Below the pieces are notes generated by a model. It saw nothing but the letters and a program-made list of their open reading frames with translations, did no database searches and was not told where the DNA came from. Below, in pieces: positions 6,741 to 61,086 of a stretch of 64,000 nucleotides of DNA. Position 1 is the stretch's first letter, and each line of letters begins with the position of its first letter. The DNA comes from a virus (Duplodnaviria > Caudoviricetes), in IMG/VR virus record IMGVR_UViG_3300034407_003088, positions 15,131-79,130 of that record; one strand, 5' to 3'. A program made the position numbers and the translations under genes.

Positions 6741-6741
6741 A

Positions 6742-8223: not shown

Positions 8224-8320
8224 TTATAAATAAACGGGTCTCTTTTTTTAATCTCACGAAGTCTCTTTTTAAAAAGATACCATCTTTTAATTTTATTGTA
8301 ATATTTTTTTAATAACTTTA

Positions 8321-13029: not shown

Positions 13030-13039
13030 GTTTATCTCC

Positions 13040-18353: not shown

Positions 18354-19046
18354 CTACCATCTCAAACGATTATAAAATGTTGCAACATGGTCTGAAAAAT
18401 AAAATCTTTTTTCACATCCGTATTTCTCTTGGTCTTCTTTAAATGCATTTTGATAAAACCAATAGTCTGCATCATATAAATCATTATCTTTTGTTGGTTT
18501 TGTAGGATATGGTTTCCAAACTGAATGATGAAATACTACTTGTCCACTATCACATGTTGAAGGTCTTATATAAGTACCAGTATCATCATGTATAATCTGT
18601 GGATGATTATATCTACTTTCTCTTGATAAACTAACTTTAAATTGTTCACCTGTATCATGACCAAGAACTATAAATTTAACTTTATCGGTTAATGATGGAT
18701 TTTGTCCATTTAATATTGGATAAAGTACGGTATATAAGTCATAATGTAAAACATTATCATCATCAACAAGTAAAACCCATCCTTCATTTACATTTTCCAT
18801 TAATGCATTTTTACCTTGATTTCCCCAACAACCACATTCTGTTTCTGTAAATGAATACATATCATCAAATAAACTTGATTCAATATCCGACTTACTACAA
18901 ACTAAAGTATCAATAGAAACATGCCATCTTATATCAAACATTTCATCATTAACTAATGGTTGTTTAAAGATTGAATCTCTAATTAAATGTAAATTGTGTG
19001 GATTCAATCCACAAGGTGTTCCTATATTTATAACTATCGGTTTCAT
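18354..19046 (-). CDS. GT-A fold glycosyltransferase-like protein
   Basis: WVLLVDDDN DxD motif; DSGQ and YDADYWF motifs. Confidence 0.6.
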   Translation of the reverse strand: MKPIVINIGTPCGLNPHNLHLIRDSIFKQPLVNDEMFDIRWHVSIDTLVCSKSDIESSLFDDMYSFTETECGCWGNQGKNALMENVNEGWVLLVDDDNVLHYDLYTVLYPILNGQNPSLTDKVKFIVLGHDTGEQFKVSLSRESRYNHPQIIHDDTGTYIRPSTCDSGQVVFHHSVWKPYPTKPTKDNDLYDADYWFYQNAFKEDQEKYGCEKRFYFSDHVATFYNRLRW

Positions 19047-20530
19047 TATGGTGCTGAATTTGTTCCTTTATTATGTACTAATATTCCATTTACAAGATAT
19101 ACATCAGAAGGTTCTACATCAAGATTAACAACTTCAACTTCACCTTCTACTCTTGATATTTGGTCAATTAAAATTAATGATTTATCTTCACCCAATAAAG
19201 ATTGTCCAACTTTACAATTACCTGCCTTCATCCATTTCCATACATTGTCTGTATCTTTTATTAATAATTCATGTTCACCAGTAACTTTAAGTTCTGAGTT
19301 AAATCCTGTAGTATTGTTTACACCAAATAAAACATAATAATGTGATGCATAATCAAAATAATAATTATCAATTACTGCAGTACTTGATTCAAATCCATCT
19401 ATTGATGATGTTGTCCAAGTTGACCATTCTTCATATCCTAAATCCTCATCAGGTAAAGTTTGAATATTAAATGTATTTACCTCATCTCCAATATCTAAGT
19501 CCTCTATGTTTTTATCACCACTTGGTGTGGATACTTTTGAACCTGGTAGGAAACATGCAACCGTTTGTCCACCATATGTATCTTGTACCTCTACAACCTT
19601 TGTTACTGCGGTGTTATATCTTGTGGAATGGTCATTGAATCCATCCGATTGTCCATCATCATTATACTTACCAGATATTGTTACGGTTTGGTCATTGTAT
19701 TGTGGCCCTGCCCACTTCTTTAATGTAATATGGTCAATAAAAATATTACCTGCACTACCTGTAAACTCTAATCTTAAATCTACTGAAGTGGAACCACTTG
19801 TATAAAAGTTATCGGTAAATAAATTCCAATTGTTTGTATTGTTTGCACCATTTCTACCAAATGTATGTGAGTTACTTTTTAGTACAACTTGTATATTTCT
19901 ATCACCAGCACTTGTATTATAAAATCTTCCTTGAATTTCATAAGTAGAATATGCATCTACACTAATAGTTTGAGTCAATGCACCATCGTCAATCTGTGCT
20001 GCAAACGAAGAACCACTACCTGCAGGGTCTGCATTTGGTGTTCCACCACTATAAGTGTGTTTCGTAACTGCATCTACAACTTCCTTTGTCCATGTTCCTG
20101 GTGTAGAAAGATTTGTCCAAGTTGCAAAATTACTATTACCAACAAGATTACTACCAACTGCAGTTTTTAAATCCGATATGGTTCCTGCACTGAATGTTCT
20201 TTGATAACCACTATCTGTTGATAAACTAAATGCATCACTTTGATTTGTAGTCCATGTAAAGTTATCACTACGAGAACCAATTTTACTTAAGAATTTACTA
20301 CCAGCATTTTGAAAAGTCAAGTTATAATTCTCAGATGTTTGTTCATCAACATAGGCGAAACCATTTAATGTATTATCCACACTATCAATTGAAAACTCAG
20401 ACATCTTAGTTTGTCCACCACCACCTGCACTTGTAAGTGAAGTGTTTGCGGTCGTATAACTTGAGATAGACGAACTAACTGCTCTTCTTAGTTTTCCTAA
20501 TGATAAGTTTTGGTTTATTGTTGTACTCAT
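19046..20530 (-). CDS. Putative virion protein: CBM4/9-like jelly-roll plus C-terminal Hint domain
   Basis: NLVGNSNF...FIDHITLK CBM-like insert; Hint from CFLPGSKV (19553-19555) through TGEH to VHN (19070-19075). Confidence 0.8.
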   Translation of the reverse strand: MSTTINQNLSLGKLRRAVSSSISSYTTANTSLTSAGGGGQTKMSEFSIDSVDNTLNGFAYVDEQTSENYNLTFQNAGSKFLSKIGSRSDNFTWTTNQSDAFSLSTDSGYQRTFSAGTISDLKTAVGSNLVGNSNFATWTNLSTPGTWTKEVVDAVTKHTYSGGTPNADPAGSGSSFAAQIDDGALTQTISVDAYSTYEIQGRFYNTSAGDRNIQVVLKSNSHTFGRNGANNTNNWNLFTDNFYTSGSTSVDLRLEFTGSAGNIFIDHITLKKWAGPQYNDQTVTISGKYNDDGQSDGFNDHSTRYNTAVTKVVEVQDTYGGQTVACFLPGSKVSTPSGDKNIEDLDIGDEVNTFNIQTLPDEDLGYEEWSTWTTSSIDGFESSTAVIDNYYFDYASHYYVLFGVNNTTGFNSELKVTGEHELLIKDTDNVWKWMKAGNCKVGQSLLGEDKSLILIDQISRVEGEVEVVNLDVEPSDVYLVNGILVHNKGTNSAP

Positions 20531-32673: not shown

Positions 32674-32859
32674 ATGAATAAGAAAAGATATAACTTTACA
32701 TTAGATGAAGATTTAGTAAATTGGTTAAAAATGCATTGTAAAGAGAATAGAACTTCCCTTTCGTCATTTATAAATCAACAAATACATAAGGTTTATAGAG
32801 AAAACTCTGTTAGACCACAAAATGTTTTAAGGTCAACTTCTGGCAAACCTAACAGATGA
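32674..32859 (+). CDS. Ribbon-helix-helix DNA-binding protein
   Basis: KKRYNFTLDEDLVNWLK.HCKENRTSLSSFINQ is an Arc/CopG/MetJ pattern; ATG 32674 with AGGA upstream. Confidence 0.8.
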   Translation: MNKKRYNFTLDEDLVNWLKMHCKENRTSLSSFINQQIHKVYRENSVRPQNVLRSTSGKPNR

Positions 32860-35800
32860 ACTTCCCTTTACCTTCTTGATTTCCAATAAGGTATCTACAA
32901 AATCTCTCATTGTTTCAATGTGTGATACAACTAAATTAAACTGAAACTCTGATTTCAGATATTGGAATAGTTGTGCAACTGAGTTCAGATTATCACTATC
33001 CATTGTTCCCCAACCCTCATCAATAGCAAGGAAGTTACTTCGTGGTAAATTACTTACATTCATTAAACCAACTCTTATTGCAAGAGAACTAATGAATCGT
33101 TCCATACCACTTGATAATTCTAAAGGCCATACTCTATCATCATCATAAACAATATGTGTATCAATTTGTTTACCATCCATATTAAACACAATACTAAAGT
33201 CAACTATCTGTGCCAATATATCATTTACTGCACCTTCTACGGTAGGTAATGATTTACTAATCAAATCATAAGGTACACCATCTCGTTTGATGGCCTCTAA
33301 TAAATATTGATATGCCTGATGTGAATCTTCAAGTTCTGCAACTTTATCAATGTTATCATTGATTTGTTTTTCATTAGTTTTATGAACTTGTATTTCACCA
33401 TGAAGTTTAGTTAATTTATCACTAACCACATCTAATTGATAATCTAAATCAGTTAAACCATTTTCTAAATTGTCAATCTCTTCTAATACTTGAGAATTAA
33501 ACATTACATTTTGTTCTTGTGATTTAGACCTTTCCATATCACTTGTAATAAGATTAAATTGTGTAGTGATATTTTTTTGTTTTTCTTTTGTGATGTTTAT
33601 ATTAGATATGATGTTATCTTGATATCTTTGTTTTTCACTTAGTTTATCTTGTAATTCATCTAAATCTTTTTTGAATGCACGAACTTTGAAATGTTTCTGT
33701 ATTTCATCTTCCATCTCTTGTTTCTTCTGTACATACTCTTGTGCAAGAGTTTTATCTTTTTCAAGATTCTTTTTGGTTTCAATAGCATCTAATGTGAATG
33801 GATTACTCATACAATGTTCACAATTCTCATCGTGTGTCAAATTACCAAGTTTATCAATCTTATCTAATTTAACTCTTACATCTGCCTTTAGTTTATCTAA
33901 TTCTATTTGAAATAAATCTCGTTCCTCTTCAAGTTTTTCTAACTTGTAATAATTCTCTTCAACACCATCTTGTTTATAGATAACAATTTTATTCTCTATT
34001 TCTTGAACTGCTCTTTCAAAGTCATATTGTTCTACTTCATACTCTGCAAGTTTTTCCTTGACATTTTCTGATAATGTTGTTAACTTAGAGTGTTGAACTT
34101 CCAACTCTTCTATACTCTTTAGATTATCATCTACAGGTTTTAATCGTTTGGTTTGTTCCTTGATGTCACTTTGAACCTTTTTGATTTGAGTCTTTAAATC
34201 TTTTTCATCTTTTTTAAACTCTTTTTCTTTACCCTCAAGTAAAATTAAATCATCAGTAATTGTAGCAAGTTCTTTATCATAATCTGACTTTTTAAAATCA
34301 GTTAACAATGCATTAACTTCTCTGATGTCTTCGTTTGCCTGAATCCATAATGAATCAAATATCTTTAATCCCATAAACTGAGATAATAATTCTTTTCGTT
34401 CTTTCTGAGTTTTATTAATAAATACGGTAGAATCGTTTTGACTACTCATGGATGTAAGTATAAAATCATCAAAACTACCAATAACCCTTTGGATATTTTT
34501 TTGTGTAGTTCTTCTTTGGTCACCATTTAAACTTACATTTTCACCTGTTTCATCTACCATCCAAAAATCAATATCAACTTTAACATGACCTGTTCTTAGA
34601 TTTTTCTTACCAAACTTCTCAATAAAATAATCTATACCATCTATCTCAAAGTTTACTTTACAATGTAAATTGTTTTTTGACTTGTTAATAATATTATCTG
34701 CTTTATATGCACGAGAACTTAAATCAAATAAGTTAAAACATAATGCATCTAACAATGCAGATTTACCACTTGCATTAGGAGCAAACAATCCAATCATTCC
34801 ATTTAGTTTAGTGAAGTCAACTATATTATCTTCACCATAACTGAATAGGTTACTAAATTCAAACTTCTTTAACTTCCAACTAATATTTCTTTGTACATCT
34901 GCATCAGGTATAACTTGATTTAATTCTTTCAATATATCTTTAATCTTAATCATAGTATCATCATCAACAATATAATTGTTTTTTAAATACTCACTAACTA
35001 AATCATATTGATAGTCAGGATTATTTACATCACCAATATTAATCTTTTTATCACGAATCTTTTCGGTACTTAGTCCATCTACTTTTGTGATAACACTTTC
35101 TTGAATCTTAGCCTTCTTCTGTAATTGTGTCATCAACTTTTTTAATTGTGATGGTTTTGTATTACTTACTCTAATACGAACTCTTGGTTTTGCTGGAAAG
35201 TCTGGTAGTTCAGGTAGTTTACCATTATCAATGTTGATTGTGTAATAACCATATTCATTTGGAATCTCAATGTATTCTGATTTAAGAGTTTCCATATCCC
35301 ATAACAAATAACCTTTACCAATATCTTCACCATGATTCTGTTGAACTAATGAACCACAATATGCAATCCTTTCATCTTTATCAAGGAATTGTCTTTTGTG
35401 AATATCACCAAGTAATCCTAAGTCATATCCTTTGAACATACTCATCTTTACTTTAGATGGTAACTTGAATCCTAAATCAGTTTCACTTCTATCTACCGTA
35501 CCATGAAATAATACAACTTTCTTCCTATCACCAGGTACATCCTTTGCCTTGATATAATCTTTTTCTTTATCCCATACATCCCATACGATTAAATCAGTAT
35601 CAGCACAAGTGTAAATACCTGTTTTCTTTAGGTAATGTAAGTTTGGATGATTAAGGTTTTCAACAATAGGTGTTAAAACATCCATACGACTTAAATTATT
35701 TAGATTTGCATCGTGATTACCTGCGATAATAACTAATGGACATATGTCTGCCAAGTTCTTAAATAAACGAGATAATTGGTCTACTAACTCTGGTGACATT

Positions 35801-35994
35801 TCTGTTTTACTATGTGCAATATCACCACCAATATACGATATTGCATTCTTAGGATTCTTCTTTACTTCTTTGTAAAGTCCTTCAAATACTTGTTCGTATT
35901 CTTTATGTCGTTGTAAATTTCTAATCTGTATATCACTTATGTGATGTATGTGTTTTAGTTTCCTAAAGGAAACTTTTAATTTATCTGTTACCAT
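32833..35994 (-). CDS. Fused Mre11/SbcD(gp47)-Rad50/SbcC(gp46) recombination nuclease-ATPase
   Basis: SDIQ, GGD, GNHD, FHG, GDIH phosphoesterase motifs; Walker A APNASGKS, CEHC hook, LSSGME signature, Walker B AIDEG. Confidence 0.92.
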   Translation of the reverse strand: MVTDKLKVSFRKLKHIHHISDIQIRNLQRHKEYEQVFEGLYKEVKKNPKNAISYIGGDIAHSKTEMSPELVDQLSRLFKNLADICPLVIIAGNHDANLNNLSRMDVLTPIVENLNHPNLHYLKKTGIYTCADTDLIVWDVWDKEKDYIKAKDVPGDRKKVVLFHGTVDRSETDLGFKLPSKVKMSMFKGYDLGLLGDIHKRQFLDKDERIAYCGSLVQQNHGEDIGKGYLLWDMETLKSEYIEIPNEYGYYTINIDNGKLPELPDFPAKPRVRIRVSNTKPSQLKKLMTQLQKKAKIQESVITKVDGLSTEKIRDKKINIGDVNNPDYQYDLVSEYLKNNYIVDDDTMIKIKDILKELNQVIPDADVQRNISWKLKKFEFSNLFSYGEDNIVDFTKLNGMIGLFAPNASGKSALLDALCFNLFDLSSRAYKADNIINKSKNNLHCKVNFEIDGIDYFIEKFGKKNLRTGHVKVDIDFWMVDETGENVSLNGDQRRTTQKNIQRVIGSFDDFILTSMSSQNDSTVFINKTQKERKELLSQFMGLKIFDSLWIQANEDIREVNALLTDFKKSDYDKELATITDDLILLEGKEKEFKKDEKDLKTQIKKVQSDIKEQTKRLKPVDDNLKSIEELEVQHSKLTTLSENVKEKLAEYEVEQYDFERAVQEIENKIVIYKQDGVEENYYKLEKLEEERDLFQIELDKLKADVRVKLDKIDKLGNLTHDENCEHCMSNPFTLDAIETKKNLEKDKTLAQEYVQKKQEMEDEIQKHFKVRAFKKDLDELQDKLSEKQRYQDNIISNINITKEKQKNITTQFNLITSDMERSKSQEQNVMFNSQVLEEIDNLENGLTDLDYQLDVVSDKLTKLHGEIQVHKTNEKQINDNIDKVAELEDSHQAYQYLLEAIKRDGVPYDLISKSLPTVEGAVNDILAQIVDFSIVFNMDGKQIDTHIVYDDDRVWPLELSSGMERFISSLAIRVGLMNVSNLPRSNFLAIDEGWGTMDSDNLNSVAQLFQYLKSEFQFNLVVSHIETMRDFVDTLLEIKKVKGSSSVRFARS

Positions 35995-36904: not shown

Positions 36905-37063
36905 TTAAAACTCATTTTTGTTTAATTTCTTTTTACCTATTCTATACTTCCACAAATCTTTTGTATCTGGTACTGGCATATCACTAAACTCTTCCATTCG
37001 TTTTTTCAATATATCAATAGACTTAACTGCTCTTATAAATTCGTCTGAATGTCTATCTTTCAT
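36905..37063 (-). CDS. Small hypothetical protein (52 aa, not in ORF track)
   Basis: MKDRHSDEFIRAVKSIDILKKRMEEF...NEF; ATGA overlap upstream and abuts the primase start. Confidence 0.6.
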   Translation of the reverse strand: MKDRHSDEFIRAVKSIDILKKRMEEFSDMPVPDTKDLWKYRIGKKKLNKNEF

Positions 37064-38376
37064 GGTTTTGGTAAGTGGTGTGTTGTTGTTATAATAGTAT
37101 TCTCCAAATAATAATTGTCATAACCTTCAATTTGTAATCCATAAAAAGACATAGGTTCCTCATGTAATTCTACATGTGTTATTGGATTATCTAAAAACCT
37201 ATCTCCAACTTTTACATCTGTAGTTTTTACAAATTGGAATTCATTGTCTCTATTAATATATATAAACTCAATTGGTGAAAACATAAAATTATTTATCTCA
37301 ACCCAAGTTTTAAAAGTATACTGATGGATATTACTTACTTTTCCATAATCACATATGTCATTGTGTTGTTTTTCTTTATAATCTACCCATGGTCTGTTTA
37401 TATCAACTATTGTATCATCATTTACTTTATTTAATATAAAAGGTTTTGCAGGTGTTGGATAGTGATGTCCCACTAATTCTTTTATTGTACTTACTTTTAC
37501 CTTATCACCTATTTCTACTTCTCGTATTGGTTTATCAATTACAAAAGTTGAAGATTCAAGTACCTCTACTTTTGTCTCACCACCTACTTGAGCCCATATC
37601 CCACTTCTTACAAATGTACTATTTTCAAATTTCATTTCAAACATATTGTCTAACTTAGGATTTTTATTTACATGAGTTGGATTACCAACTAAATTAATAA
37701 TTTCTGAATAACTTATATTTGAACTTTGTGGTCTAATAGGTATCATTCCTAACTTATCCATTAAAAATAAACACTTCAATACTATTGGATTCCCATACTC
37801 GTCTGTATATGGTTTGATATATTCTTCACAATAATCACTATCATCATATTGACAATTAGGCATATAATCATAATAAGGTGTAGTTTTTAGAAAGTCTCTG
37901 AATAGATTCTTATATCTTGATAAAGTAATTAAACCTTCACCATGTTTTGTTGTGGGTAAATTTTTTATATAATATGTGTCATCGTCTTTTGAAAAATTTT
38001 CTCTTGATTTTGCATAAATTACTTGACATTGTGGTAATTCCTTTGTAAGTTTAGATATAAATTGTGGTTCTGGATTGAATCCTTTATCCTCTTCTCTTAT
38101 AACTAATTTTACTTTTTCATAACCCTTAACCCACAAATGTTTTTTTATTCGTTCAAAGTCTATTCCCGCAGAACCATATAACATTAAATCAGTAAGTGCA
38201 AGGTCTGTATTTATTTCTAACAAATATAACTTTTTATCTTCAGACAAAATCCAATCAAAAGTTAATAACTCACCCTCATTTACATCATTACTTACATAAT
38301 CACTAAGATAAAGTGGTGTACCAATCTGTAGTGATTTGATAATTGCCTCATTTATGATATGGAAACTTCTGACCAC
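37060..38376 (-). CDS. Circularly permuted ATP-grasp-like N-terminus fused to an inactive Hint-like domain
   Basis: FDWIL...LYLLEINTD near the N-terminus; C-terminal KPIREVEIGDKV...DVKVGD...YGLQIEGYDNYY matches Hint blocks but lacks Cys1, TxxH and HN. Confidence 0.55.
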   Translation of the reverse strand: MVRSFHIINEAIIKSLQIGTPLYLSDYVSNDVNEGELLTFDWILSEDKKLYLLEINTDLALTDLMLYGSAGIDFERIKKHLWVKGYEKVKLVIREEDKGFNPEPQFISKLTKELPQCQVIYAKSRENFSKDDDTYYIKNLPTTKHGEGLITLSRYKNLFRDFLKTTPYYDYMPNCQYDDSDYCEEYIKPYTDEYGNPIVLKCLFLMDKLGMIPIRPQSSNISYSEIINLVGNPTHVNKNPKLDNMFEMKFENSTFVRSGIWAQVGGETKVEVLESSTFVIDKPIREVEIGDKVKVSTIKELVGHHYPTPAKPFILNKVNDDTIVDINRPWVDYKEKQHNDICDYGKVSNIHQYTFKTWVEINNFMFSPIEFIYINRDNEFQFVKTTDVKVGDRFLDNPITHVELHEEPMSFYGLQIEGYDNYYLENTIITTTHHLPKP

Positions 38377-51794: not shown

Positions 51795-54700
51795 TTAATT
51801 TACTTTTAATTTTGAATCACCTGGTTCTTTTGTTATAAGTTGTGTTGGTGTTGTAGTTGTTGTTTCAACTGGTTCTCCACCATCAAATGTATTTGATGAT
51901 ACGGTTAATTGTCCACTTCCAAGACTTACACTACCAATAAATGGTGATTTACTTGAAGTAGGATGACTTGTTTGTCCATCATCTCTTGTTACTGAACCAC
52001 CAATAAATGACCTAAATAATCTTGTATCATAATAAACACTCTGATGTTCACTTGGTACAAATGAAGAACTATAATGTAGTCCTCTTGATGCACTCAAACT
52101 TGATGAATAAAAGAATACTTTTTCTTGATTATGTTCTGCCAATCTTGAACCTGTTATTACTGGTTGTAATACTTCACCAAATGTTATACCTTCTCCACCA
52201 AATGTTACACTTGCAGTTGCATAGTTGTAAGAGTGTGGTGTTTTTGCATCTATGACACCTAACTTAACTAATGTAGGTTCTCCCAATCCACCAAGTGAAC
52301 CACTATTATCATGATAGACTGCATTCAATCCACTTTCATAATATTTTTGTTCACCACCTATATCAAAGTATGCATCATCTTTTGAACCACTAATAAATCT
52401 TGTTACTGGTACACCATCTTCAAACTCATTTGCATTTTCAAAGTAACGATTATCAAACTCAGGTCTATCACCTATTACTTGTTTACTTCTTTCTAAAATA
52501 TTTGGTTCTATCAATACACCTGTAGTTGCCTTACTTCTTGCAGGAACCCAATTCTTTAATTGTGTAAATACACTTGGGTCATAGAATGTTAAAATTCTTA
52601 AATAATCAAAAAAGTTATTTGGACTTGAATATTTTTGAAAATATTCAGTTTGTAATCTTTTAAGACCTCTATAGTTTAATTTGTATTGGTCTCGTGGGTC
52701 ACCGATATAATCATCAAAATTAAAGTCTGCAATACTATATAATATATCCTCATTAACAACATCAACTGGTGAAAAATAAATACCAACTTTCTCACTATCT
52801 ATTGGTGCAAAATCTTGTGATGATTTTTCTTTTCTTTCATCAGGTGATAAATTACCAATAATAGTACTATCTTCTACCCTAACTTTAGTTGCATTTCTTC
52901 TTGTAGGGCCAATGTTTGGTACTTTCAATTGTTCCTTATCAACTAAACTTCTAAATGTATTACTTGTAAATCCATTTACTGAACCTGTTGTATCCATTTG
53001 TGATGTTACGAAATAGTTTTGTCTATTACTAACACTACTAACAAATGAAGTTGATGATAAATTAACATTATTATCAAGTGGATATCTTACTAACAAGTCG
53101 TGGTATGAAGAACTATATGAATTACCATTATAAGCTCTTGGTGCCCTAACATGATTATCAAATACACTTTGTGATAATGGTTCTGACCATAGACGATACT
53201 CCATTAATGAACCACTATATCTTGAACCGAAGTTTGTATTTTGTCCACCAAGATAAACAAATTTTGAACCAACACTACCTGTAAATGCAGCATTGATTGC
53301 ACTACTACTTGCGTGTCCGATACCAGTTGTTAAACTTGAACTTGTTTGGAACTTAATTTTTTCTCTTGTTGAGTCATATTGTTTTGTAGTTAATTCATAT
53401 TTTACATTTCTTGTGATTAAATCATCAGTCATTTGTGCACCACTTGCACTTACTCGTGTTAACATCACACTCCACATCTCATCATTATAGAATGGTAAGA
53501 GTGAAGAAGTTATACCATAAACTCCTGTTGATGCACTAACACTAAATTTTAAATACCCATAATCATCTGTAGTACCATTGTCTTTTAAATGTATTGCCCA
53601 ATCATTTTCTTTTTGTGCAATCACCATACTACCAGAACTTCCTACACTATTTGGTGTTCTAAATCTTAATTCTAAAGCTTGTGGATATTGACTATTTAAA
53701 TCGGTTGTCCATAAACTTTTTACATATTGTGAACTATGAAAATCTAATGCATATGTAAATTTTCTTTTTACTTCATAACTTACTCGTTCTTGATTATCAG
53801 GCCCACCATATTCTCTAACTCTTAATATAGAACTTGGAATACCATAACAATTTAAAATCCCTTTTAAACATCTGACACTACCTTTTGACTTGATAAAGAA
53901 TGGAATGTTATTTAATAATCGTTTCCATATTTCTTCCGTTACTTCTTCTTGTGGTGTTTCATACTTTGTGGAACCATCAGGATTTTTACCCTCAAGATAT
54001 TCAGGTAATATCAATAAGTCATTACCATTTGTAAGTTCCAATCCAAGTGATTTCGCAAACTCTGATGCAATGTCTTTACTTATACCCTCTGAAACATTAG
54101 GTGAAAGATTATTAACATCTGTAAAGTGTTTTGTATATGTCCATATCTCATCAAATTGTTGACCAGTCATATCCATAAATTCTATAAATGTATTGTTCAT
54201 CGTATCATCTTTAACATGCATAGGTAAATTATTACCAAGTCTATCATTATTAGTAGAATCGTAAGTTGACGCAGACAATATCATATTGTCAAACCAATTA
54301 CTTACTTCAGAACCACTTGAATGATAAAGTACATATGGTTTAGAACTATTTTGTTTAGGCCAACTATTTTCATGATATTGTCCAGCCGATGAACTTACAT
54401 AAGATGAACTTTCAAAATACATATAATGTTCAAATGGGTCAAAGGAATTAATTACTCTTGCTCTTTTATCTTCATTTGATTGTATGTCACTTAGTGAACC
54501 TGTTAGACTTACCAATGATGAACTTGTTTCACTATATGTTTCTATATACTCAATTTTTTTCTTAAAATTTCTTAATCTTCTCTCTGCACTTGAGTAATGT
54601 ATGAAATTACCAAATCCAATATCATCAGATTCTAAATTTAAATCTACTGATGTTCTATTAAACTCTGTATTAACTTGTACATCTAATAAACTACCACTTA

Positions 54701-56957
54701 CTAATTTTCTTTCAATATCTTTATTAAGTTGGTTGTCACTTCCTAATAATGTGTTATGTGTTTCAAATCTTGTTGACCTAAAATTAATTGGATTATCAAC
54801 TGAATTTAAATTAGGTAATTGTAAAAATAAACCATCTGGTTCTTCATCTATAAATGGTATTAATCTAACCACCTCAACATGAGATGGTAATCTTTTTTCT
54901 ACAAAATATACTTTGTCTAATTCTTCTTTGTCACCTGCCAATGGTAGTTTTAATTTAAATACTCTTTTTGAATCTTGAGTTTCAAAGAAGTTTTTATTTT
55001 CATTTGTGATTAAATAATAATCATCATCACAAACCATATAGGTTTTAAATCTTTCTATATTATTTTTCTCATATAAAACATTCCATCCATACCAATCAGT
55101 ATCTCTACCACTTGGGCCATCATGACCAACATTATCTGCAGCATCTTGATATGATATACTTACTCTTACTTTATTATAATCAAGAACCTCTGTAATTGTT
55201 GCAACATAATCAAAGTGAAATGTTTCATTTTCAAATCTTTCAACCCAACTTTCAACAACACGAGTTTCGTACTCTATTGTTACTTCGTCTTCAGGTGAAA
55301 TAGGTAATGGTGTTTGTCTAATGAATTCTTCTAATGCAGGTAACTCTGCATGTAATACCACCTCTTCTTTAATGTCTGGTACAATAACTTCGTTTTGATA
55401 TATGTTGTTATTGTTTGCACCATATAAACCCCATCCATCTCCACCATCTATTAATCCACCTTGTGGTAAACCATTACCTGGTGTTAATGGGTCTGTACCT
55501 TCTTCACCTAAATCTGCATTACCTGTTACATCAAAATCAATGTATGCAGGTCTGGCAGAACCTTGTCTACTTGCACGATATGGGTCAACATAACCACTTG
55601 CTGCTCTTTGTTCTGCAAGTTGTTGTGCTCTTTTTGACTGACCCATTCTAAATCTATTTCTGTCTTCAAGAAATCTTTCTTGCCAATGTTTAGTCTCAGT
55701 AGTCTTCCATTTACCAAGAGTCGCTGCAACTATATTGTTTGCAAAAATTGTGTGGTCTTTATCTAATACTAAGTTCCACACTTTAAAAGGTGGTTTCTGA
55801 TAATATACTTTACCAATCTCTCTTGACATGAACCAACCATCTTTTGTTCTGATAGGATGGTGGTCGGTAACGATAAGGTTTTTATATTTAACCATCAAGT
55901 CACCAAAACCTCTTTCACTCTTTATGACTTTCTTAACTCTTGCAACACCTTTATCTGTTCTGACTTTCATACCAATCTTCATCATCTTGATTGGAACTTG
56001 TCTACCACTACTTAATGTTACTTTTGTATTAGGATGAAAACAAACTCCATCGTAATCAAACATACCACCATAATCCTCATCTTCTTCATCAGGTAGGTCT
56101 GGTGGTGGTGGGTCTGGTTCAGGTTCAGGTGGTAACTCTTCATAAGGTGGTGGAGGTGGAGGCGGGTCTGGAATACTATCATCTAAACTATGAGTAATCT
56201 CAACAGGAACCTCTATCGTTTCTACCACACTTTCAAGATATTGTCTTGTTATTGTTTTTTCAAATATTCTTGGTAATCTAATTTCACCACCAACCATATT
56301 TTGTGTAAACCCTCTATCATTATCTTGTAGGTTTGCAACTAATATTCCTGGTTCATTTTCATCAAACTTAATAGAACCATTTGCTCCACTACCTGCAGTA
56401 AGAAATGGTTGAAACTTTACAATAGAATTCATCTCTCTAAAGTTTTTATGATATGTTTGGTTTTTAAAATCTTGTGTTTTAACTACGATTTCTGTTCTAT
56501 CACCACTAATCTTATCAAGTGAATATTTTAAATCTCGTATAAATAATTCTTTTGGTGGATTATCTGCAAGTGATTGAGCAGATGCATTTGGTGGTGGGGC
56601 AGTATAATATCTTGTTTCACCATTTACATTTTTTGTGACAACTTTACCTGCATATAATTCACCATCACCATTTACCATTACTAAATGGTCTCTACCTGCT
56701 AACTTTCTTAGAAATCTATATTGTACAATATATTCACCATCCGATAATCCATTATCTCTTAGATGTTGACCAACATTTAAATCTAAAAACCCTTCAGTAT
56801 TTACATCAGGATTAAACTTATCTGTGAGCACAAGTTCATCATTTTGGAAAACTTCTAAAACTATATAGTCTTTACTATCTCTTCCAAAACTACTATATAC
56901 CCTTTCAGGTTTATAATATTGTTCTCTCTCTTGATTATTAAATCCGTATTCTGCCAT
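51795..56957 (-). CDS. Large baseplate wedge-like protein (gp7/P2 I-like segment, LamG) with internal Vint-type Hint domain
   Basis: IWKRLLNNIP..IKSKGS..C..GIL..YG wedge motif; LamG-like WSVML...LMEYRLW; CFHPNTKV...VTDHHPI...VWNLVL...IVAATLG. Confidence 0.75.
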   Translation of the reverse strand: MAEYGFNNQEREQYYKPERVYSSFGRDSKDYIVLEVFQNDELVLTDKFNPDVNTEGFLDLNVGQHLRDNGLSDGEYIVQYRFLRKLAGRDHLVMVNGDGELYAGKVVTKNVNGETRYYTAPPPNASAQSLADNPPKELFIRDLKYSLDKISGDRTEIVVKTQDFKNQTYHKNFREMNSIVKFQPFLTAGSGANGSIKFDENEPGILVANLQDNDRGFTQNMVGGEIRLPRIFEKTITRQYLESVVETIEVPVEITHSLDDSIPDPPPPPPPYEELPPEPEPDPPPPDLPDEEDEDYGGMFDYDGVCFHPNTKVTLSSGRQVPIKMMKIGMKVRTDKGVARVKKVIKSERGFGDLMVKYKNLIVTDHHPIRTKDGWFMSREIGKVYYQKPPFKVWNLVLDKDHTIFANNIVAATLGKWKTTETKHWQERFLEDRNRFRMGQSKRAQQLAEQRAASGYVDPYRASRQGSARPAYIDFDVTGNADLGEEGTDPLTPGNGLPQGGLIDGGDGWGLYGANNNNIYQNEVIVPDIKEEVVLHAELPALEEFIRQTPLPISPEDEVTIEYETRVVESWVERFENETFHFDYVATITEVLDYNKVRVSISYQDAADNVGHDGPSGRDTDWYGWNVLYEKNNIERFKTYMVCDDDYYLITNENKNFFETQDSKRVFKLKLPLAGDKEELDKVYFVEKRLPSHVEVVRLIPFIDEEPDGLFLQLPNLNSVDNPINFRSTRFETHNTLLGSDNQLNKDIERKLVSGSLLDVQVNTEFNRTSVDLNLESDDIGFGNFIHYSSAERRLRNFKKKIEYIETYSETSSSLVSLTGSLSDIQSNEDKRARVINSFDPFEHYMYFESSSYVSSSAGQYHENSWPKQNSSKPYVLYHSSGSEVSNWFDNMILSASTYDSTNNDRLGNNLPMHVKDDTMNNTFIEFMDMTGQQFDEIWTYTKHFTDVNNLSPNVSEGISKDIASEFAKSLGLELTNGNDLLILPEYLEGKNPDGSTKYETPQEEVTEEIWKRLLNNIPFFIKSKGSVRCLKGILNCYGIPSSILRVREYGGPDNQERVSYEVKRKFTYALDFHSSQYVKSLWTTDLNSQYPQALELRFRTPNSVGSSGSMVIAQKENDWAIHLKDNGTTDDYGYLKFSVSASTGVYGITSSLLPFYNDEMWSVMLTRVSASGAQMTDDLITRNVKYELTTKQYDSTREKIKFQTSSSLTTGIGHASSSAINAAFTGSVGSKFVYLGGQNTNFGSRYSGSLMEYRLWSEPLSQSVFDNHVRAPRAYNGNSYSSSYHDLLVRYPLDNNVNLSSTSFVSSVSNRQNYFVTSQMDTTGSVNGFTSNTFRSLVDKEQLKVPNIGPTRRNATKVRVEDSTIIGNLSPDERKEKSSQDFAPIDSEKVGIYFSPVDVVNEDILYSIADFNFDDYIGDPRDQYKLNYRGLKRLQTEYFQKYSSPNNFFDYLRILTFYDPSVFTQLKNWVPARSKATTGVLIEPNILERSKQVIGDRPEFDNRYFENANEFEDGVPVTRFISGSKDDAYFDIGGEQKYYESGLNAVYHDNSGSLGGLGEPTLVKLGVIDAKTPHSYNYATASVTFGGEGITFGEVLQPVITGSRLAEHNQEKVFFYSSSLSASRGLHYSSSFVPSEHQSVYYDTRLFRSFIGGSVTRDDGQTSHPTSSKSPFIGSVSLGSGQLTVSSNTFDGGEPVETTTTTPTQLITKEPGDSKLKVN

Positions 56958-56965: not shown

Positions 56966-57478
56966 TTATTCTAAAACTATGTTATCTTTTAATGGAATTC
57001 TTGGTTGATAACCTGATGGTGCTTCAGGAGTACCAAAGGTATCATCTCTACCACCTATTGGTTCTTCATCAGGTTCTGGTAAATTAATTGGTGGATTAAA
57101 CGATACTTCAGGTCTTGGTTGTTTTTTCTTTCCATCTGTAGATGAATAAAAATTATTAAAATTATCAATGATAAATTCAGAAAATTCTCTTTCTTTATCT
57201 ATTTCTGGTAACATATCATCATTAAAATATTGTTGTTGATTGATAACACGAACATTTTGATAAACTTGTTCAACTGCATTACCAAGATTGTCTGGGTCTT
57301 CATAAGATAATATTATACCATTACCATCTCTTAATGGATTTGTTGCATCCCAAGACCCACTTATTTTCATAAGTTCTCTATTGGTTTGTATTTCACGATT
57401 TAAGGCTATTCGTTCCTCATTAATAATTCTATCGTATAATTCGGAATTTAATACTGCCTCATCTTTTGTATATGGCAT
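56966..57478 (-). CDS. Hypothetical structural-cluster protein
   Basis: ORF within the baseplate operon. Confidence 0.55.
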   Translation of the reverse strand: MPYTKDEAVLNSELYDRIINEERIALNREIQTNRELMKISGSWDATNPLRDGNGIILSYEDPDNLGNAVEQVYQNVRVINQQQYFNDDMLPEIDKEREFSEFIIDNFNNFYSSTDGKKKQPRPEVSFNPPINLPEPDEEPIGGRDDTFGTPEAPSGYQPRIPLKDNIVLE

Positions 57479-57480: not shown

Positions 57481-58656
57481 TTATCTCTCAATGTTTCTTA
57501 CAACCTTAAATGACCATGCTGGGTCACTATAGTAATTTATCAATTCATCTGTGGTTCCACTACCACTAACTACTTTAAGATGTATGTCATAATGTCTTTC
57601 TGATTGGAAACTATCCATTCTTAAATTAAAGTAATTACCAGTACCATCACAACTAACAATTGAACCTGTACCAAATGGTACTATTGTTTCTTCAGTTACA
57701 GAATCTTTAATTGAATAGAAAGTTGAACCACTTGGTAATGTTCGTACGGTAAGACCTTCAGGTGTTGTACCAAACACTCTATCATTGTATCTTGGTCTAC
57801 CAACTAATCTAAATCTTGATATTGATTTTTCTAAATATTCCTCTCGTATACCTTTAAAATAAATTACGGTATCGTCTAATGCACTACCTGTAAGTTGTGC
57901 TAAACTTCCTGTTGTCCACTTTGAATCATCCCAAACAACTTCTAATGATGGTGGATAAATTGTATGTGTTTCTCTTGAAAAGAATTGTAGTGTACCAAGT
58001 CGTGAAGTTCCACCTTCATCTGAGGTAGTATCACCACTATATGAATAAGTTGTTCCATATGAACCTGTAGATTCTCTCTTAATTATAAATCCATTATTTG
58101 GATAAATAGAACTTGAAAAAATATGATTTCTAACCAAATCAGTTACATCAAATCTAACATCTCGTTTATCATAAGTTAAACCAAAAGACCCACTTATGTT
58201 ATATTGTGAATAAGAATCTTGTGAACCACTAAACCAAGAACCACCATCTGTCAAGAGTGAACCTGTCACCCATGGTAATTTTTGGTCTTGGTCTCTGTAT
58301 TGATATGATGCACCATTTGTAGTTATAGGACTATCAAACTTTTTACCAGTTCCTGATTTCCAACTTCCACTAACCATATAGATAACAAGGTTTTGTTCTG
58401 CCTCTATATCTTTTGAACCTGCATCATATAAATTTAAATAAAATTTTGCATCTGTAGGTATCTTACCATCTTGAATTGACTTAGATACATACGAGTAGTC
58501 TGCACTTAATAATATACGAGATACATTTATTGTACTACCATCTGAACTTACTTCTTTTACAACTTCTAATATTTCATCATGACCAGCATTTAACGATGAT
58601 GTTGTACCACCTGAATAAATTGTTGTGTCTCTGTTTATGTATTCAAAATAATGCAT
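57481..58656 (-). CDS. DNRLRE-like beta-sandwich structural protein
   Basis: FDVTDLV, NNGFIIK, FFSRET...PPSLEVVW pattern. Confidence 0.5.
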   Translation of the reverse strand: MHYFEYINRDTTIYSGGTTSSLNAGHDEILEVVKEVSSDGSTINVSRILLSADYSYVSKSIQDGKIPTDAKFYLNLYDAGSKDIEAEQNLVIYMVSGSWKSGTGKKFDSPITTNGASYQYRDQDQKLPWVTGSLLTDGGSWFSGSQDSYSQYNISGSFGLTYDKRDVRFDVTDLVRNHIFSSSIYPNNGFIIKRESTGSYGTTYSYSGDTTSDEGGTSRLGTLQFFSRETHTIYPPSLEVVWDDSKWTTGSLAQLTGSALDDTVIYFKGIREEYLEKSISRFRLVGRPRYNDRVFGTTPEGLTVRTLPSGSTFYSIKDSVTEETIVPFGTGSIVSCDGTGNYFNLRMDSFQSERHYDIHLKVVSGSGTTDELINYYSDPAWSFKVVRNIER

Positions 58657-60629
58657 TAAAAGTCTCCTACTACTCTACCCTCAATATCTGTATTGGGTAG
58701 TTTGACCTCAAAACAACTTGGGTCTAATGATGGATAAAGAACACCATCTCGTAGTGCAGATTGTATATCGTATATGTTTCCACTATATCCTTCTGCAACT
58801 ACATGTTTGTTTTCAATTACAATTATATCTTTATTTGGATTATTGTCTTCAGGTGGAACTAAACTTGCCACACCTTCTACCAATGAAATCTGATATGCAA
58901 TATCACTCAAGACAATCGGTTGACCTATTTGCCATTTTTGTATATCAAAGTATTCTTTAACTTTTTGGATTGCCTTAAATAATACATCATTTTTGTTATA
59001 ATTTCTTTTTGTAATAATACTAAATTTTACACCAATGTTTATAATATATGCATTTTTAATATTGATTGCATCTGTTACCATTCTGTATTGTGAAAGGTAA
59101 GTTCTTAAATTTTCTTTTACTGCTCTATTAATTGGTGTTAGTTTTCTATCTACATCATATCCAAGAACATACATGTTTAGTGCCAATGGATTATCTGCAG
59201 TACTTACATTTTCATTTTCTACAACTTTACCTGTTACACTATCTACATATGTTTCTGTTTTCTTTTCTAATTGTTCATCTTGAACTACAAATGCCTTTGC
59301 AATATTACCATACTTCTGTGGTAATGAATAAACACGAGTAATGTAATCTTTTTGTGTTACTGCACGACCTTGAGCATTATGGTTAGCTGCCGCATTGAGA
59401 CGAATTTGTTGTAATGATTCTTCACCACTACCACCACTTGCAGGATTTGGATTAGTAAACGATAAACTCTGTTCTGACTCTCCTACTTTCGTACTATCAA
59501 GTCCTTCTGAATTTATAGTAAATACTACATCATTTTGATTTTGTATTGTATTTGACCTTACATTATGTTCAACTGCTCCACCATAATTATAAGTTACGGT
59601 AAGTGTTGTATTACTTGGTGCCAAACCAAATGTCTTTGTTTTTAAAAAGTTACTTGGGTCAAATGTAGCATCTATTTTAGATACACCAGTTGCCAAAGAT
59701 GAACCTACATTATCTGGATTTGGAATTATTTCCTCGTCAGGATTATCACTAACACCTGAACCAAATAGTATTTCTGTTTTTAAATCTTCACCTCTAACAT
59801 GTGTTGCAAATCTTCTTGATGTTTTAATAAGTTTTAACAAATACGGTGTATCATTGAAGAATTGTGCAAGTGCTGGGTCATTGTCTGTATTATTTTCTTC
59901 ATCTTCAAATACGGTGTCTTGTGCTAAGAAAGGAACATGATACCATTTGTTACCATTACTATCTGTTACAGAAATAACCTCAGTAACATTAGGTTCTGAT
60001 AAAACTATCTTATCAAACTTAACAGCGTTTGAAAATGTAAATGTTTCTGATTTTCTTGTTCCACTTTTTGAACCTATAGTTTTTGTTAATTTAAATTTTT
60101 CTGGTATAGTACCTGATGATGGTTGAACTATTTCAACTTTCATTGGGTCTAACGAACTTGATACTTTAAAATTAACTGAATCTTGTAAAGTAAATGTAGT
60201 ACCATTGTTTGAACTTAAGATAGCATTCTCAGTTATTATACCTGCGTATTTTAAATCAGGTGCATAACTATCACCATTTGTTCTAGCCGGTACGGTTTGT
60301 GATACTTCTATTTTTGCACTTGCAGGTGAAGAAGTTTTAGGTGTATATCCCATTGATTGTGCAATCTCATAAATATTTTTTTTCTCTTCTGCCTGTAATA
60401 TTAATGTTTCCCTAAACTGATTATCTATATAAAAGTTAAGTACATCACCAACATATGCTGCCATCTCAATAAACATCATACCAGGGTCTGCCTCATTAAA
60501 ATCATTATATGTGTTTGGAAAATATGATTTTGCAAACTCTATGATATTTTGTCTAATGGAAGAAAAGTCTCTACCGAGATAATTTACTTCTTTTGAAATT
60601 GTTTTTTTATTTGTCCCATAGTCTGGCAT
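58656..60629 (-). CDS. Baseplate wedge subunit (T4 gp6/baseplate J-like)
   Basis: YLGRDFSSIRQ, FIEMAAYVGDVLNFY, GGSGEES..QIR, RAVTQKDY. Confidence 0.9.
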   Translation of the reverse strand: MPDYGTNKKTISKEVNYLGRDFSSIRQNIIEFAKSYFPNTYNDFNEADPGMMFIEMAAYVGDVLNFYIDNQFRETLILQAEEKKNIYEIAQSMGYTPKTSSPASAKIEVSQTVPARTNGDSYAPDLKYAGIITENAILSSNNGTTFTLQDSVNFKVSSSLDPMKVEIVQPSSGTIPEKFKLTKTIGSKSGTRKSETFTFSNAVKFDKIVLSEPNVTEVISVTDSNGNKWYHVPFLAQDTVFEDEENNTDNDPALAQFFNDTPYLLKLIKTSRRFATHVRGEDLKTEILFGSGVSDNPDEEIIPNPDNVGSSLATGVSKIDATFDPSNFLKTKTFGLAPSNTTLTVTYNYGGAVEHNVRSNTIQNQNDVVFTINSEGLDSTKVGESEQSLSFTNPNPASGGSGEESLQQIRLNAAANHNAQGRAVTQKDYITRVYSLPQKYGNIAKAFVVQDEQLEKKTETYVDSVTGKVVENENVSTADNPLALNMYVLGYDVDRKLTPINRAVKENLRTYLSQYRMVTDAINIKNAYIINIGVKFSIITKRNYNKNDVLFKAIQKVKEYFDIQKWQIGQPIVLSDIAYQISLVEGVASLVPPEDNNPNKDIIVIENKHVVAEGYSGNIYDIQSALRDGVLYPSLDPSCFEVKLPNTDIEGRVVGDF

Positions 60630-60630
60630 T

Positions 60631-61086
60631 TTAACTTCCCTTATTTATCGGTGCTTCTTGTGTAAACTCTTCCGATGCAAACTGACCAAAATTAAATGTA
60701 ATGGTCTGTAAAGATTCTTTATCAGTTTGTATTGTATATTCTAATTGAACCAATACAGCATTTTGATTTCTTTCGTCACTCCTAACGATTATTTCATTAA
60801 CAATAACATATGGTAACCATCTTTCTATTGCATCAGTAATTGCAACTTCAATCCTATCTTCTAAGTCTGGAGTATATTGTTCAAAAATTAATCTTGTTAA
60901 ATCACTACCAAACTCTGGTTGAAATACTCGTTCACCTTTTGTGGTTAATAATAAGTTTCTAAGATTTGATTTAGTTTGTTGTAAAAGAGTTTTACTTTGT
61001 TCAAAAGTAGAGAACGCAGTTAAGTCTAATGGAAATGTTAAACCTACAAACTTATCAGGATTTTTATCTGTTTCTCTTACACTCAT
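60631..61086 (-). CDS. Baseplate wedge subunit gp25/GPW-like
   Basis: NLRNLLLTTKGERVFQPEFGSDL...AIERWLPYV. Confidence 0.92.
   Translation of the reverse strand: MSVRETDKNPDKFVGLTFPLDLTAFSTFEQSKTLLQQTKSNLRNLLLTTKGERVFQPEFGSDLTRLIFEQYTPDLEDRIEVAITDAIERWLPYVIVNEIIVRSDERNQNAVLVQLEYTIQTDKESLQTITFNFGQFASEEFTQEAPINKGS

What the first reader, a model, noticed from the sequence alone, without database searches (positions are those of the whole stretch)
55200..56260. Vint-type Hint domain inserted in the baseplate wedge protein behind a polyproline/acidic linker
PDPPPPPPPYEELPPEPEPDPPPP and an acidic YGG segment precede CFHPNTKV (Cys at 56040-56042). The domain keeps TDHH and ends IVAATLG, as in eukaryote-associated VWA-Hint (Vint) proteins, with no HN. 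It can therefore plausibly cleave only at its N-terminus, cutting off the first ~305 aa as an activated thioester. It is a different Hint subtype from the fibre ones, implying independent recruitment of the same chemistry.
Basis: partly seen in the sequence, partly recalled or inferred. Interest (0 to 1): 0.78.

Follow-up and report, generated by a model that had tools for sequence, protein, structure and literature searches.

The report
Self-cutting Vint domain joins two phage genes
A marine phage makes two tail-baseplate proteins as one 1720-residue chain joined by a Vint-type, Hedgehog/intein-like domain that probably cuts the chain, at the exact point where most related phages have two separate genes.

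Summary
ORF 51795..56957 (-), 1720 aa, carries a Hint domain at residues 306-415. It scores Pfam Vint 60.9 bits (cut-off 27), while every other Hint model is below threshold. Its profile finds the solved Tetrahymena Vint domain 8r2c, and the AlphaFold model has the Hint fold (Z 14-16). Cys306 and T364-x-x-H367 are invariant. There is no terminal His-Asn.

The new result is comparative. The 132-residue cassette (Hint plus a helical tail) sits between two modules, A (1-305) and B (438-1720). In 52 of 79 related viral loci these are two separate, overlapping genes with no Hint. Met438 aligns with the start Met of gene B. The Pro/acidic "linker" is the normal tail of A.

About 76 IMG/VR contigs keep the in-frame A-Hint-B form. 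The core is under strong purifying selection (dN/dS 0.02-0.18). In one relative (L086) the same cassette ends a different gene of the module and is followed by a stop codon.

Best reading: a non-splicing self-cleaving linker cuts at Val305|Cys306 and gives A plus Hint-B. Cleavage itself is inferred. "Baseplate wedge" is not established.

Earlier scan notes on other phage genomes describe similar Hint "caps" on split baseplate genes. This in-frame, Vint-type form is a new variant.

The parts
51795..56957 (-). Whole ORF, 1720 aa: module A, Vint-type Hint cassette and module B in one frame
   Evidence: The same in-frame architecture occurs in about 76 IMG/VR contigs.
56175..56957 (-). Module A core, residues 1-261. 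It corresponds to a separate gene of about 290-318 aa in most relatives.
   Evidence: tblastn and ORF maps. AF2 model pLDDT 69, with no convincing fold match.
56043..56174 (-). Pro-rich/acidic C-terminal tail of module A, residues 262-305, ending in Val305 (the -1 residue)
   Evidence: Split relatives have similar acidic/Pro tails at the end of gene A, including the motif PPPPDLPDE. Val at -1 in 35 of 37 unique cassettes.
56040..56042 (-). Cys306, the predicted catalytic nucleophile (Hint block A, Cys1)
   Evidence: Present in every cassette found by tblastn. Invariant in 37 unique sequences.
55713..56042 (-). Hint core, residues 306-415, Vint type
   Evidence: Pfam Vint 60.9 bits. PDB 8r2c profile E 1.5e-6. 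AF2 pLDDT 82.9. Foldseek and VIA matches to Hint folds, Z 14-16. dN/dS 0.02-0.18.
55857..55868 (-). Block B motif T364-D-H-H367 (TxxH)
   Evidence: Thr364, His367 and Pro368 are invariant in 37 unique cassettes. These positions were not part of the regex used to collect the cassettes.
55647..55712 (-). Conserved helical tail of the cassette, residues 416-437 (KW...F...R.R..)
   Evidence: Helix in the AF2 model. K416, W417, F429 and R433 are invariant. The tail is kept in L086, where a stop codon follows it. The 8r2c structural alignment extends into it.
55644..55646 (-). Met438, which aligns with the initiator Met of gene B in split relatives
   Evidence: tblastn hits from q438 start at the gene B start codon in L018, L019, L040, L043, L053 and others. 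Met in 36 of 37 unique cassettes.
51798..55646 (-). Module B, residues 438-1720. It corresponds to a separate gene of 1160-1670 aa in most relatives.
   Evidence: 31-32% identical to proteins of Microcystis phage Mel-JY01 and Flavobacterium phage immuto. Atlas look-alike clusters are viral, and one of them carries Laminin_G_3 in 57% of its members.
56966..57478 (-). Upstream 170-aa gene. Its homologue in L086 carries the same Vint cassette at its C-terminus.
58656..61086 (-). gp6/J-like (58656-60629) and gp25-like (60631-61086) baseplate genes, which place the locus in a contractile-tail baseplate module
   Evidence: Pfam GPW_gp25 E 2.3e-16. PHROG baseplate wedge families E 1e-20 to 6e-25.

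Best explanation
The 1720-aa product is a self-processing polyprotein. Residues 306-437 form a Vint-type Hint cassette: a 110-aa Hint core plus a 22-aa helix. The cassette lies between module A (residues 1-305, including A's own Pro/acidic tail) and module B (from Met438).

Proposed mechanism:
- Cys306 attacks the Val305 carbonyl (N-S acyl shift), assisted by Thr364 and His367, and forms a thioester.
- The thioester is resolved, most simply by water. This frees A with a C-terminus close to that of stand-alone A proteins.
- There is no Asn at the end of the Hint core, so there is no splicing and no C-terminal cut. The Hint stays on the N-terminus of B.

The phage thereby obtains the same two virion polypeptides that most of its relatives encode as two translationally coupled genes.

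Shown: domain identity, fold, motif conservation, purifying selection, exact junction position, and occurrence of the same cassette as a terminal cap on another gene of the module.

Inferred: the cleavage itself, its site, and the fate of the thioester.
For: - Domain identity: Pfam Vint 60.9 bits. The cassette profile hits PDB 8r2c at E 1.5e-6. All 72 top non-self hits of the profile carry Pfam Vint.
- Fold: AF2 pLDDT 82.9. VIA Z is 15.6 to BIL2 6y75, 14.4 to Vint 8r2c and 12.9 to Hedgehog 1at0.
- Catalytic residues: Cys306, Thr364 and His367 are invariant in 37 unique cassettes from 86 loci.
- Selection: dN/dS of the core is 0.02-0.18.
- Gene structure in relatives: of 79 related loci, 52 encode A and B as separate overlapping genes without any Hint, and 18 have the in-frame Hint form.
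- Junction: Met438 aligns with B's start Met, and A's tail ends about where Val305 lies.
- No terminal Asn: Ala412-Thr413 are in place of His-Asn.
- Terminal cap elsewhere: in L086 the same cassette with the same tail ends the homologue of the upstream 170-aa gene and is followed by a stop codon.
Against: - No protein-level data exist, so cleavage is inferred from motifs only.
- A clade of relatives (L056, L059, L063, L066, L081, L083) and probably Mel-JY01 have A-like and B parts in one chain without any Hint. Physical separation of A and B is therefore not obligatory in this family.
- After N-terminal cleavage B would keep a 132-aa appendage that stand-alone B proteins lack.
- The Pfam match covers only positions 1-116 of the 166-position Vint model.
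Confidence: 0.68

Rival explanations
1. Thioester hand-off instead of plain hydrolysis. The Hint makes the Val305 thioester and the helical tail acts like a small adduct-recognition region. The C-terminus of A would then be covalently attached to a nucleophile, such as a lysine or hydroxyl of another baseplate protein, a glycan or a lipid, in the way Hedgehog attaches cholesterol.
For: - The conserved helix directly follows the Hint core and is kept even where nothing follows it (L086).
- Asp353 is conserved in 35 of 37 cassettes, at a position similar to the Hedgehog Asp that serves transfer. This comparison is from my own knowledge and the alignment was not tested.
- Thr413 is nearly invariant next to the active site.
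Against: - Most relatives do without any Hint on A, so a covalent adduct on A is not needed for the structure.
- No acceptor is identifiable.
- The tail is only about 22 aa, against about 50-70 aa in the Vint and Hog C-terminal regions.
Confidence: 0.15
2. Inactive relic. The Hint is a folded spacer that no longer cleaves, and the protein functions as one 1720-aa chain.
For: - Some relatives have A-like and B parts in one chain with no Hint.
- The terminal Asn is already lost.
Against: - The catalytic Cys, Thr and His are invariant across cassettes that are only about 48-55% identical.
- dN/dS is 0.02-0.18.
- The Hint is better conserved than the flanking parts of A. Window versus L010 is 86% in the Hint core, against 61% over residues 1-438.
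Confidence: 0.1
3. True protein splicing. The cassette is an intein that ligates A to B.
For: The Hint fold resembles mini-inteins (Z 13-14). Thr413 could be read as a +1 nucleophile.
Against: - There is no C-terminal Asn or His-Asn.
- Relatives without the cassette have two genes, not one continuous host protein.
- A 22-aa helix lies between the core and B.
- Intein Pfam models are below threshold.
Confidence: 0.02

Closest known systems
Eukaryotic VWA-Vwaint-Vint proteins (Pfam PF14623; Burglin 2008, PMC2362128; Tetrahymena Vint structure PDB 8r2c)
   Same: - Best HMM family, at 60.9 bits.
- Shared motifs: C-F at the start, T-x-x-H-P-I...W, H-T-[IM], and the closing A/C-x-T-L-G.
- 24-25% identity to 8r2c, Z 14.4 over 121 aligned residues including the first helix after the core.
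   Different: - No VWA, Vwaint or U-box upstream.
- Only positions 1-116 of the 166-position model are matched; the C-terminal third is replaced by a short helix.
- The host is a tailed phage, and the domain is internal and fused to a downstream 1283-aa module.
Hedgehog/Hog C-terminal autoprocessing domain (Hint plus sterol/adduct recognition region; PDB 1at0)
   Same: - N-terminal cleavage only, through a Cys thioester.
- No terminal Asn.
- A helical segment follows the Hint core.
- Fold Z 12.9.
   Different: - Pfam Hint PF01079 scores only 12.9 bits, against a cut-off of 29.7.
- The tail is far shorter than an SRR.
- No evidence of an adduct.
- Here the domain is followed by a large protein module.
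Bacterial intein-like (BIL) and PT-HINT domains, which cleave but do not splice
   Same: Non-splicing Hint domains that release a neighbouring module. The structural match to BIL2 6y75 has Z 15.6.
   Different: Hint_2 (16.8 bits) and PT-HINT (12.0 bits) are below threshold. BIL and PT-HINT domains usually keep a C-terminal Asn or His-Asn; this one does not.
Terminal Hint 'caps' on split phage baseplate genes noted earlier in this scan (AI notes e1-5739359, e1-5667051, e1-5832427, e1-5739353)
   Same: A Hint plus helical tail at a break between two virion-protein genes, while close relatives are split the same way without it. L086 shows this terminal-cap layout for the present cassette.
   Different: - Those caps end the first gene; here the cassette reads through into the second module in about 76 contigs.
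- The host gene family is different (no VrlC/DUF4815 hit).
- I could not compare the sequences.
Self-cleaving C-terminal chaperone domains of phage tail spikes and fibres (Peptidase_S74 type)
   Same: Autoproteolytic maturation of a phage tail protein.
   Different: Unrelated fold and chemistry (Ser-Lys dyad). Stated from general knowledge, not tested here.

Membership tests
Hint superfamily (Hedgehog/intein fold) | All-beta Hint fold | tested here: met
   AF2 pLDDT 82.9. Foldseek E 1e-7 to 1e-6 to BIL2, Vint and inteins. VIA Z 15.6, 14.4 and 14.1, with rmsd 1.7-2.9 over 106-121 residues.
Hint superfamily (Hedgehog/intein fold) | Nucleophile (Cys/Ser) at position 1 and block B T-x-x-H | tested here: met
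   Cys306 and Thr364..His367 are invariant in 37 unique cassettes.
Pfam Vint (PF14623) | HMM score above the gathering threshold, and best among the Hint models | tested here: met
   60.9 bits against a cut-off of 27; other Hint models score at most 16.8 bits. In the reverse direction, 72 of 72 top non-self hits of the cassette profile are Vint.
Pfam Vint (PF14623) | Full-length domain (model positions 1-166) | tested here: not met
   Only positions 1-116 are matched. Eukaryotic members match to about 150-166.
VWA-Vint protein family (Burglin 2008) | VWA then Vwaint then Vint architecture, in eukaryotes | tested here: not met
   No VWA or Vwaint hit in P0001. The contig is an IMG/VR phage contig with gp25-like and gp6-like genes.
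Inteins (protein splicing) | C-terminal Asn (usually His-Asn) followed by a Cys/Ser/Thr +1 | tested here: not met
   The last strand ends ...N-I-V-A-A-T-L-G. There is no Asn at the terminal position in any of the 37 cassettes.
Inteins (protein splicing) | Insert-free homologues form one continuous host protein across the insertion point | tested here: not met
   Insert-free relatives have two genes, with a stop and a start at this point.
Hedgehog/Hog domain | Pfam Hint PF01079 match plus a sterol/adduct recognition region | tested here: not met
   PF01079 scores 12.9 bits, against a cut-off of 29.7. Only a 22-aa helix follows the core.
BIL / Hint_2 / PT-HINT | HMM score above threshold | tested here: not met
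   Hint_2 scores 16.8 against 28.4, and PT-HINT 12.0 against 27.7. The resemblance is at fold level only.
Baseplate wedge proteins (T4 gp6/gp7/gp25 type), for the host protein | Sequence or fold match to a known wedge family | tested here: inconclusive
   No Pfam or PHROG hit apart from Vint. No PDB sequence hit. The module A model gave only weak beta-sandwich matches, Z at most 5. Module B was not folded.
Baseplate wedge proteins (T4 gp6/gp7/gp25 type), for the host protein | Position in a baseplate gene module | tested here: met
   The gene order is gp25-like, gp6-like, 391 aa, 170 aa, then this gene. The same order is seen in the phage immuto and Mel-JY01 records.

The most novel reading that the evidence does not exclude
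The Vint cassette is a portable junction module of phage baseplate operons. It can sit at the end of one virion gene (L086) or read through into the next (here), so that gene pairs and self-cleaving polyproteins interconvert during evolution. Its thioester may also be used to attach module A covalently to another baseplate component. Phage cassettes of this kind would then be the prokaryote-side relatives of eukaryotic Vint that earlier work did not find.
Probability: 0.2. Interest if true: 0.85.

Novelty: new variant of a known kind. Interest (0 to 1): 0.64.

Why it matters
Hint chemistry is well known. Three aspects of this case are not described in the papers I could search.

- Vint was defined as a eukaryotic family with no known origin (PMC2362128). 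Here a Vint-type domain sits in a tailed phage.
- A non-splicing Hint is used as an in-frame linker between two virion proteins. Sister lineages carry the same two proteins as separate genes. This is a natural comparison between gene fission and post-translational fission.
- The same cassette occurs at two different gene junctions of one baseplate module, which suggests a movable end-cap.

The case gives a compact (about 130 aa) candidate N-cleaving tag, and a concrete test system for what Vint domains do.

Tried and rejected
- **PHROGs on the whole protein:** no family.
- **phmmer of the whole protein against PDB:** only noise apart from 8r2c.
- **Protein Atlas look-alikes:** nothing usable for module A. 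Module B gave only viral hypothetical clusters, one of which carries Laminin_G_3 in 57% of its members.
- **Module A structure:** the AF2 model is mediocre (pLDDT 69). Foldseek pdb found nothing at E <= 0.001, and pdb_via_wide gave only small beta-sandwich matches with Z at most 5. A has no assignable fold.
- **Pfam on split relatives:** Pfam on the extra middle genes, on the N-terminal extensions of B in split relatives, and on the fused-without-Hint proteins found no Hint or other domain, except PKD in L073.
- **L086:** I first read the 381-aa gene as the A homologue. BLAST showed it is the homologue of the upstream 170-aa gene, and A is the next gene of 243 aa.
- **Direction of evolution:** the PMSF tree makes the Hint-bearing rows paraphyletic (95% SH-aLRT), but the AU test does not reject them as one clade (p 0.21). 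Gain versus loss is unresolved.
- **Literature:** searches for Vint or Hint with phage terms found only classical terminase inteins and the 2008 Vint paper. No paper for 8r2c or Mel-JY01 is in the library.
- **Not run:** Complex prediction, because no binding claim is made.
Full report
**What is there**

The finding lies in one long ORF, window 51795..56957 on the minus strand, 1720 aa. The window is part of a 79-kb IMG/VR viral contig estimated to be about 41% complete. It has about 30% G+C and nearly all genes are on one strand.

Upstream, in transcription order, are:
- a gp25-like gene (Pfam GPW_gp25 E 2.3e-16);
- a gp6/J-like gene (PHROG baseplate wedge families, E 1e-20);
- a 391-aa gene and a 170-aa gene without matches.

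The Pro-rich and acidic stretch is at residues 262-305. Cys306 is at 56040-56042. TDHH is at 364-367. The closing NNIVAATLG ends at residue 415, and no His-Asn follows.

**Is it a Vint-type Hint domain?**

Yes, on four independent lines of evidence.
- **Pfam.** Vint matches residues 305-417 at 60.9 bits (cut-off 27), and at 66.2 bits on the isolated domain. Hint_2, Hom_end_hint, Hint and PT-HINT all stay below 17 bits.
- **Solved structure.** A profile of 11 orthologous cassettes (A1) finds one solved structure above noise, the Tetrahymena Vint domain 8r2c, at E 1.5e-6. The motifs line up: T-x-x-H-P-I...W and H-T-[IM].
- **Large-library search.** The same profile searched against 1.84 billion representative proteins gives 809 hits. 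After the phage's own orthologues, all 72 of the best hits I scanned carry Pfam Vint. Of these, 35 carry Vwaint, 28 carry VWA and 14 carry U-box, which is the eukaryotic VWA-Vint family defined by Burglin 2008 (PMC2362128).
- **Fold.** The AlphaFold model (pLDDT 82.9) is a Hint fold. Foldseek gives TMq 0.70 to 8r2c. VIA gives Z 15.6 to BIL2 6y75, 14.4 to 8r2c over 121 residues, 13-14 to mini-inteins and 12.9 to Hedgehog 1at0.

Membership has limits. Only positions 1-116 of the 166-position Vint model are matched. There is no VWA or Vwaint. The organism is a phage. So it belongs to the Vint sequence type of Hint domain, but it is not a VWA-Vint protein.

**The surroundings change the picture**

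A scan of IMG/VR with the whole protein returned 79 related loci. I mapped the ORFs under the matches. They fall into these classes:

| Class | Loci |
|---|---|
| One in-frame ORF with the Hint at the same place | 18 |
| Two genes with no Hint | 52 (16 of them with a third small gene in between) |
| Single ORF without a Hint | 6 |
| Too truncated to tell | 3 |

In the two-gene class, gene A is about 290-318 aa and matches query residues 1 to about 235-286. Gene B is 1160-1670 aa and matches query residues from 438 or 583 to 1719. The stop of A overlaps the start of B by one base.

Neither an iterated profile of the cassette nor Pfam finds any Hint in the split loci, their middle genes or the other fused forms.

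The alignment at the junction is exact.
- In L018, L019, L040, L043, L053 and others, the tblastn match that begins at query residue 438 starts at the start codon of gene B.
- The first residues of B are collinear with ours from Met438 (M-A-x-S-x-R-A-K-Q-L, then A-Y-I-D-F-D-V-T-G).
- The C-terminal tails of stand-alone A proteins are also acidic and Pro-rich. Some contain the same PPPPDLPDE motif, and they end about where our Val305 lies.

So the "linker" belongs to A. The inserted unit is residues 306-437, which is 132 aa: a Hint core of 110 aa plus a conserved 22-aa helix.

**How widespread and how constrained**

A second scan with the cassette profile found it in about 76 IMG/VR contigs. 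It is always in the A-Hint-B reading-through form. ORFs are 1595-1707 aa, the Cys is at position 287-315, and there is never a stop after the tail.

Across 37 unique cassettes, which are down to about 48% identical to ours, conservation is as follows:
- Invariant: Cys306, Phe307, Thr364, His367, Pro368, Trp375, His402, Thr403, Asn408, Ala412, Lys416, Trp417, Phe429 and Arg433.
- Asp353: 35 of 37.
- Thr413: 36 of 37.
- Met438: 36 of 37.

Cys, Phe, Thr311 and K-W were part of the pattern I used to collect the cassettes, so their invariance is partly by construction. However, one search was based on tblastn alone and also shows C-F in every locus.

Among the close relatives, dN/dS of the Hint core is 0.02-0.18. 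The Hint is better conserved than module A around it. Window versus L010 is 86% in the core, against 61% over residues 1-438.

**A second location for the same cassette**

The best non-orthologous hit of the profile, P0011 (381 aa, E 1e-19), lies on metagenome contig L086 in the same module. I first took it for the A homologue, and BLAST corrected this. The L086 gene order is:
- the end of a gp6-like gene;
- a homologue of our 391-aa gene (47% identical);
- the 381-aa gene;
- a 243-aa homologue of module A (E 4e-17);
- a 1254-aa homologue of B (40% identical);
- homologues of our next two genes.

The N-terminus of the 381-aa protein matches our 170-aa protein (E 7e-5). It then has an Ig-like domain, then the Vint cassette (34% identical to ours) with the same G-K-W...R-N tail, and then a stop codon.

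So the cassette also exists as a terminal cap on a different gene of this module, next to an A|B pair that is split. This fits a self-removing end module and argues against a structural part of B.

**Evolution**

I built trees of an 800-residue core of B, rooted on Mel-JY01 and immuto. The Hint-bearing rows form a basal grade, and all Hint-less rows of the marine group form one well-supported clade (100% SH-aLRT). With the site-heterogeneous model, the window's own Hint group is closer to the Hint-less clade than to the other Hint clade (95%).

Read literally, this implies one gain and one loss. However, the AU test does not reject a single Hint clade (p 0.21), and the outgroups are on very long branches. 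I therefore claim only this: the two states changed into each other once or twice, and the direction is open.

Either way, lineages moved between "A-Hint-B" and "A plus B" while the rest of the protein stayed collinear. That is what one expects if the two forms give equivalent products.

**Mechanism**

My best reading, with confidence about 0.68, is a non-splicing, N-terminally self-cleaving linker.
- Cys306 forms a thioester with Val305, helped by Thr364 and His367.
- The thioester is hydrolysed and A is freed.
- The place of the intein His-Asn is taken by Ala412-Thr413, so no succinimide-driven C-terminal cut or splicing can follow, and the Hint stays on B.

The steps from thioester formation onward are inferred from the established chemistry of Hint domains, not shown here.

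Rival readings:
- **Hand-off of the thioester to another nucleophile, Hedgehog-like (0.15).** The conserved helix and the nearly invariant Asp353 and Thr413 allow it, but most relatives need no Hint at all.
- **An inactive spacer (0.10).** This is hard to square with the invariant catalytic residues and the low dN/dS. It is kept alive by the clade of L056-like proteins, and probably Mel-JY01, where A-like and B parts are joined without any Hint.
- **True splicing (0.02).**

The claim of a different subtype from the fibre Hint domains holds. The 494-aa protein (19046..20530) and its neighbours match Hint_2, PT-HINT and Intein_splicing weakly and do not match Vint. BLAST between the two kinds of Hint gives E 1.5.

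"Baseplate wedge protein" is not established. The gene follows wedge genes, but neither A nor B matches any named family. In P2- and Mu-like gene orders this position could equally hold a fibre or a peripheral baseplate protein. That comparison is from general knowledge.

**Novelty**

Hint domains on phage and giant-virus proteins are visible in BFVD annotations. Earlier AI notes of this scan report Hint-plus-helix caps at breaks of split baseplate genes in other phages. I could not check those notes, and they are leads only.

I did not find the following described in the searchable literature:
- the Vint sequence type in a phage;
- the in-frame polyprotein form conserved in about 76 contigs;
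- the residue-exact correspondence to a gene boundary in sister lineages;
- the same cassette at two junctions of one module.

I rate this a new variant of a known kind.

Noticed in passing
window 19046-20530 (-) and 21558-22613 (-): Two other proteins (494 and 351 aa) end in Hint-like domains of a different subtype. They give sub-threshold matches to Hint_2, PT-HINT and Intein_splicing and no Vint match.
   Followed up: partly
window 37060-38376 (-): The C-terminal part of this 438-aa protein gives weak Intein_splicing and PT-HINT matches. I did not check this.
   Followed up: no
window 23826-32573 (-): A giant ORF of 2915 aa with no Pfam match at E <= 0.01.
   Followed up: no
window 32833-35994 (-): A 1053-aa protein that joins a Metallophos (Mre11/SbcD-like) nuclease domain to an AAA_23/SMC_N (Rad50/SbcC-like) ATPase in one chain.
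   Followed up: no
window 6742-14509 (-): A run of five ORFs of very similar size (484-501 aa), possibly a paralogous array. I did not compare them.
   Followed up: no
L086:2299-3444 (+): The same Vint cassette plus helical tail ends the homologue of the window's 170-aa gene, after an Ig-like domain, and is followed by a stop codon. A and B are separate genes on this contig.
   Followed up: yes
L056, L059, L063, L066, L081, L083: This clade is nested among the split relatives. An A-like domain (27-30% identical) and B are in one ORF with no Hint. The acidic tail of A and the first segment of B are replaced by unrelated sequence.
   Followed up: partly
L014 / L093 (same contig), residues around 430-440: This is the only cassette in which the Met438 equivalent is Cys. 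About the first 30 residues of B are deleted, so the tail runs straight into A-Y-I-D-V-D.
   Followed up: no
L146:3804-7766: The Hint-B ORF starts only a few residues before the Cys, and the A part is not in the same frame. This could be a real Hint-B gene or a frameshift in the assembly.
   Followed up: no
L161, L162, L163 (the last a giant-virus MAG), about 6480-7400: Proteins of about 300 aa whose C-terminal half starts V-C-F-H-P-[DN]-T-K-V-K-L, has a T-G-x-H block, and ends in F-W-D-W-E-D. They appear to be a related terminal Hint on large eukaryote-virus-like contigs.
   Followed up: no
L073:5794-9129: In this distant relative the gene in the A position is 1111 aa and contains a PKD domain. 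B is a separate gene.
   Followed up: no
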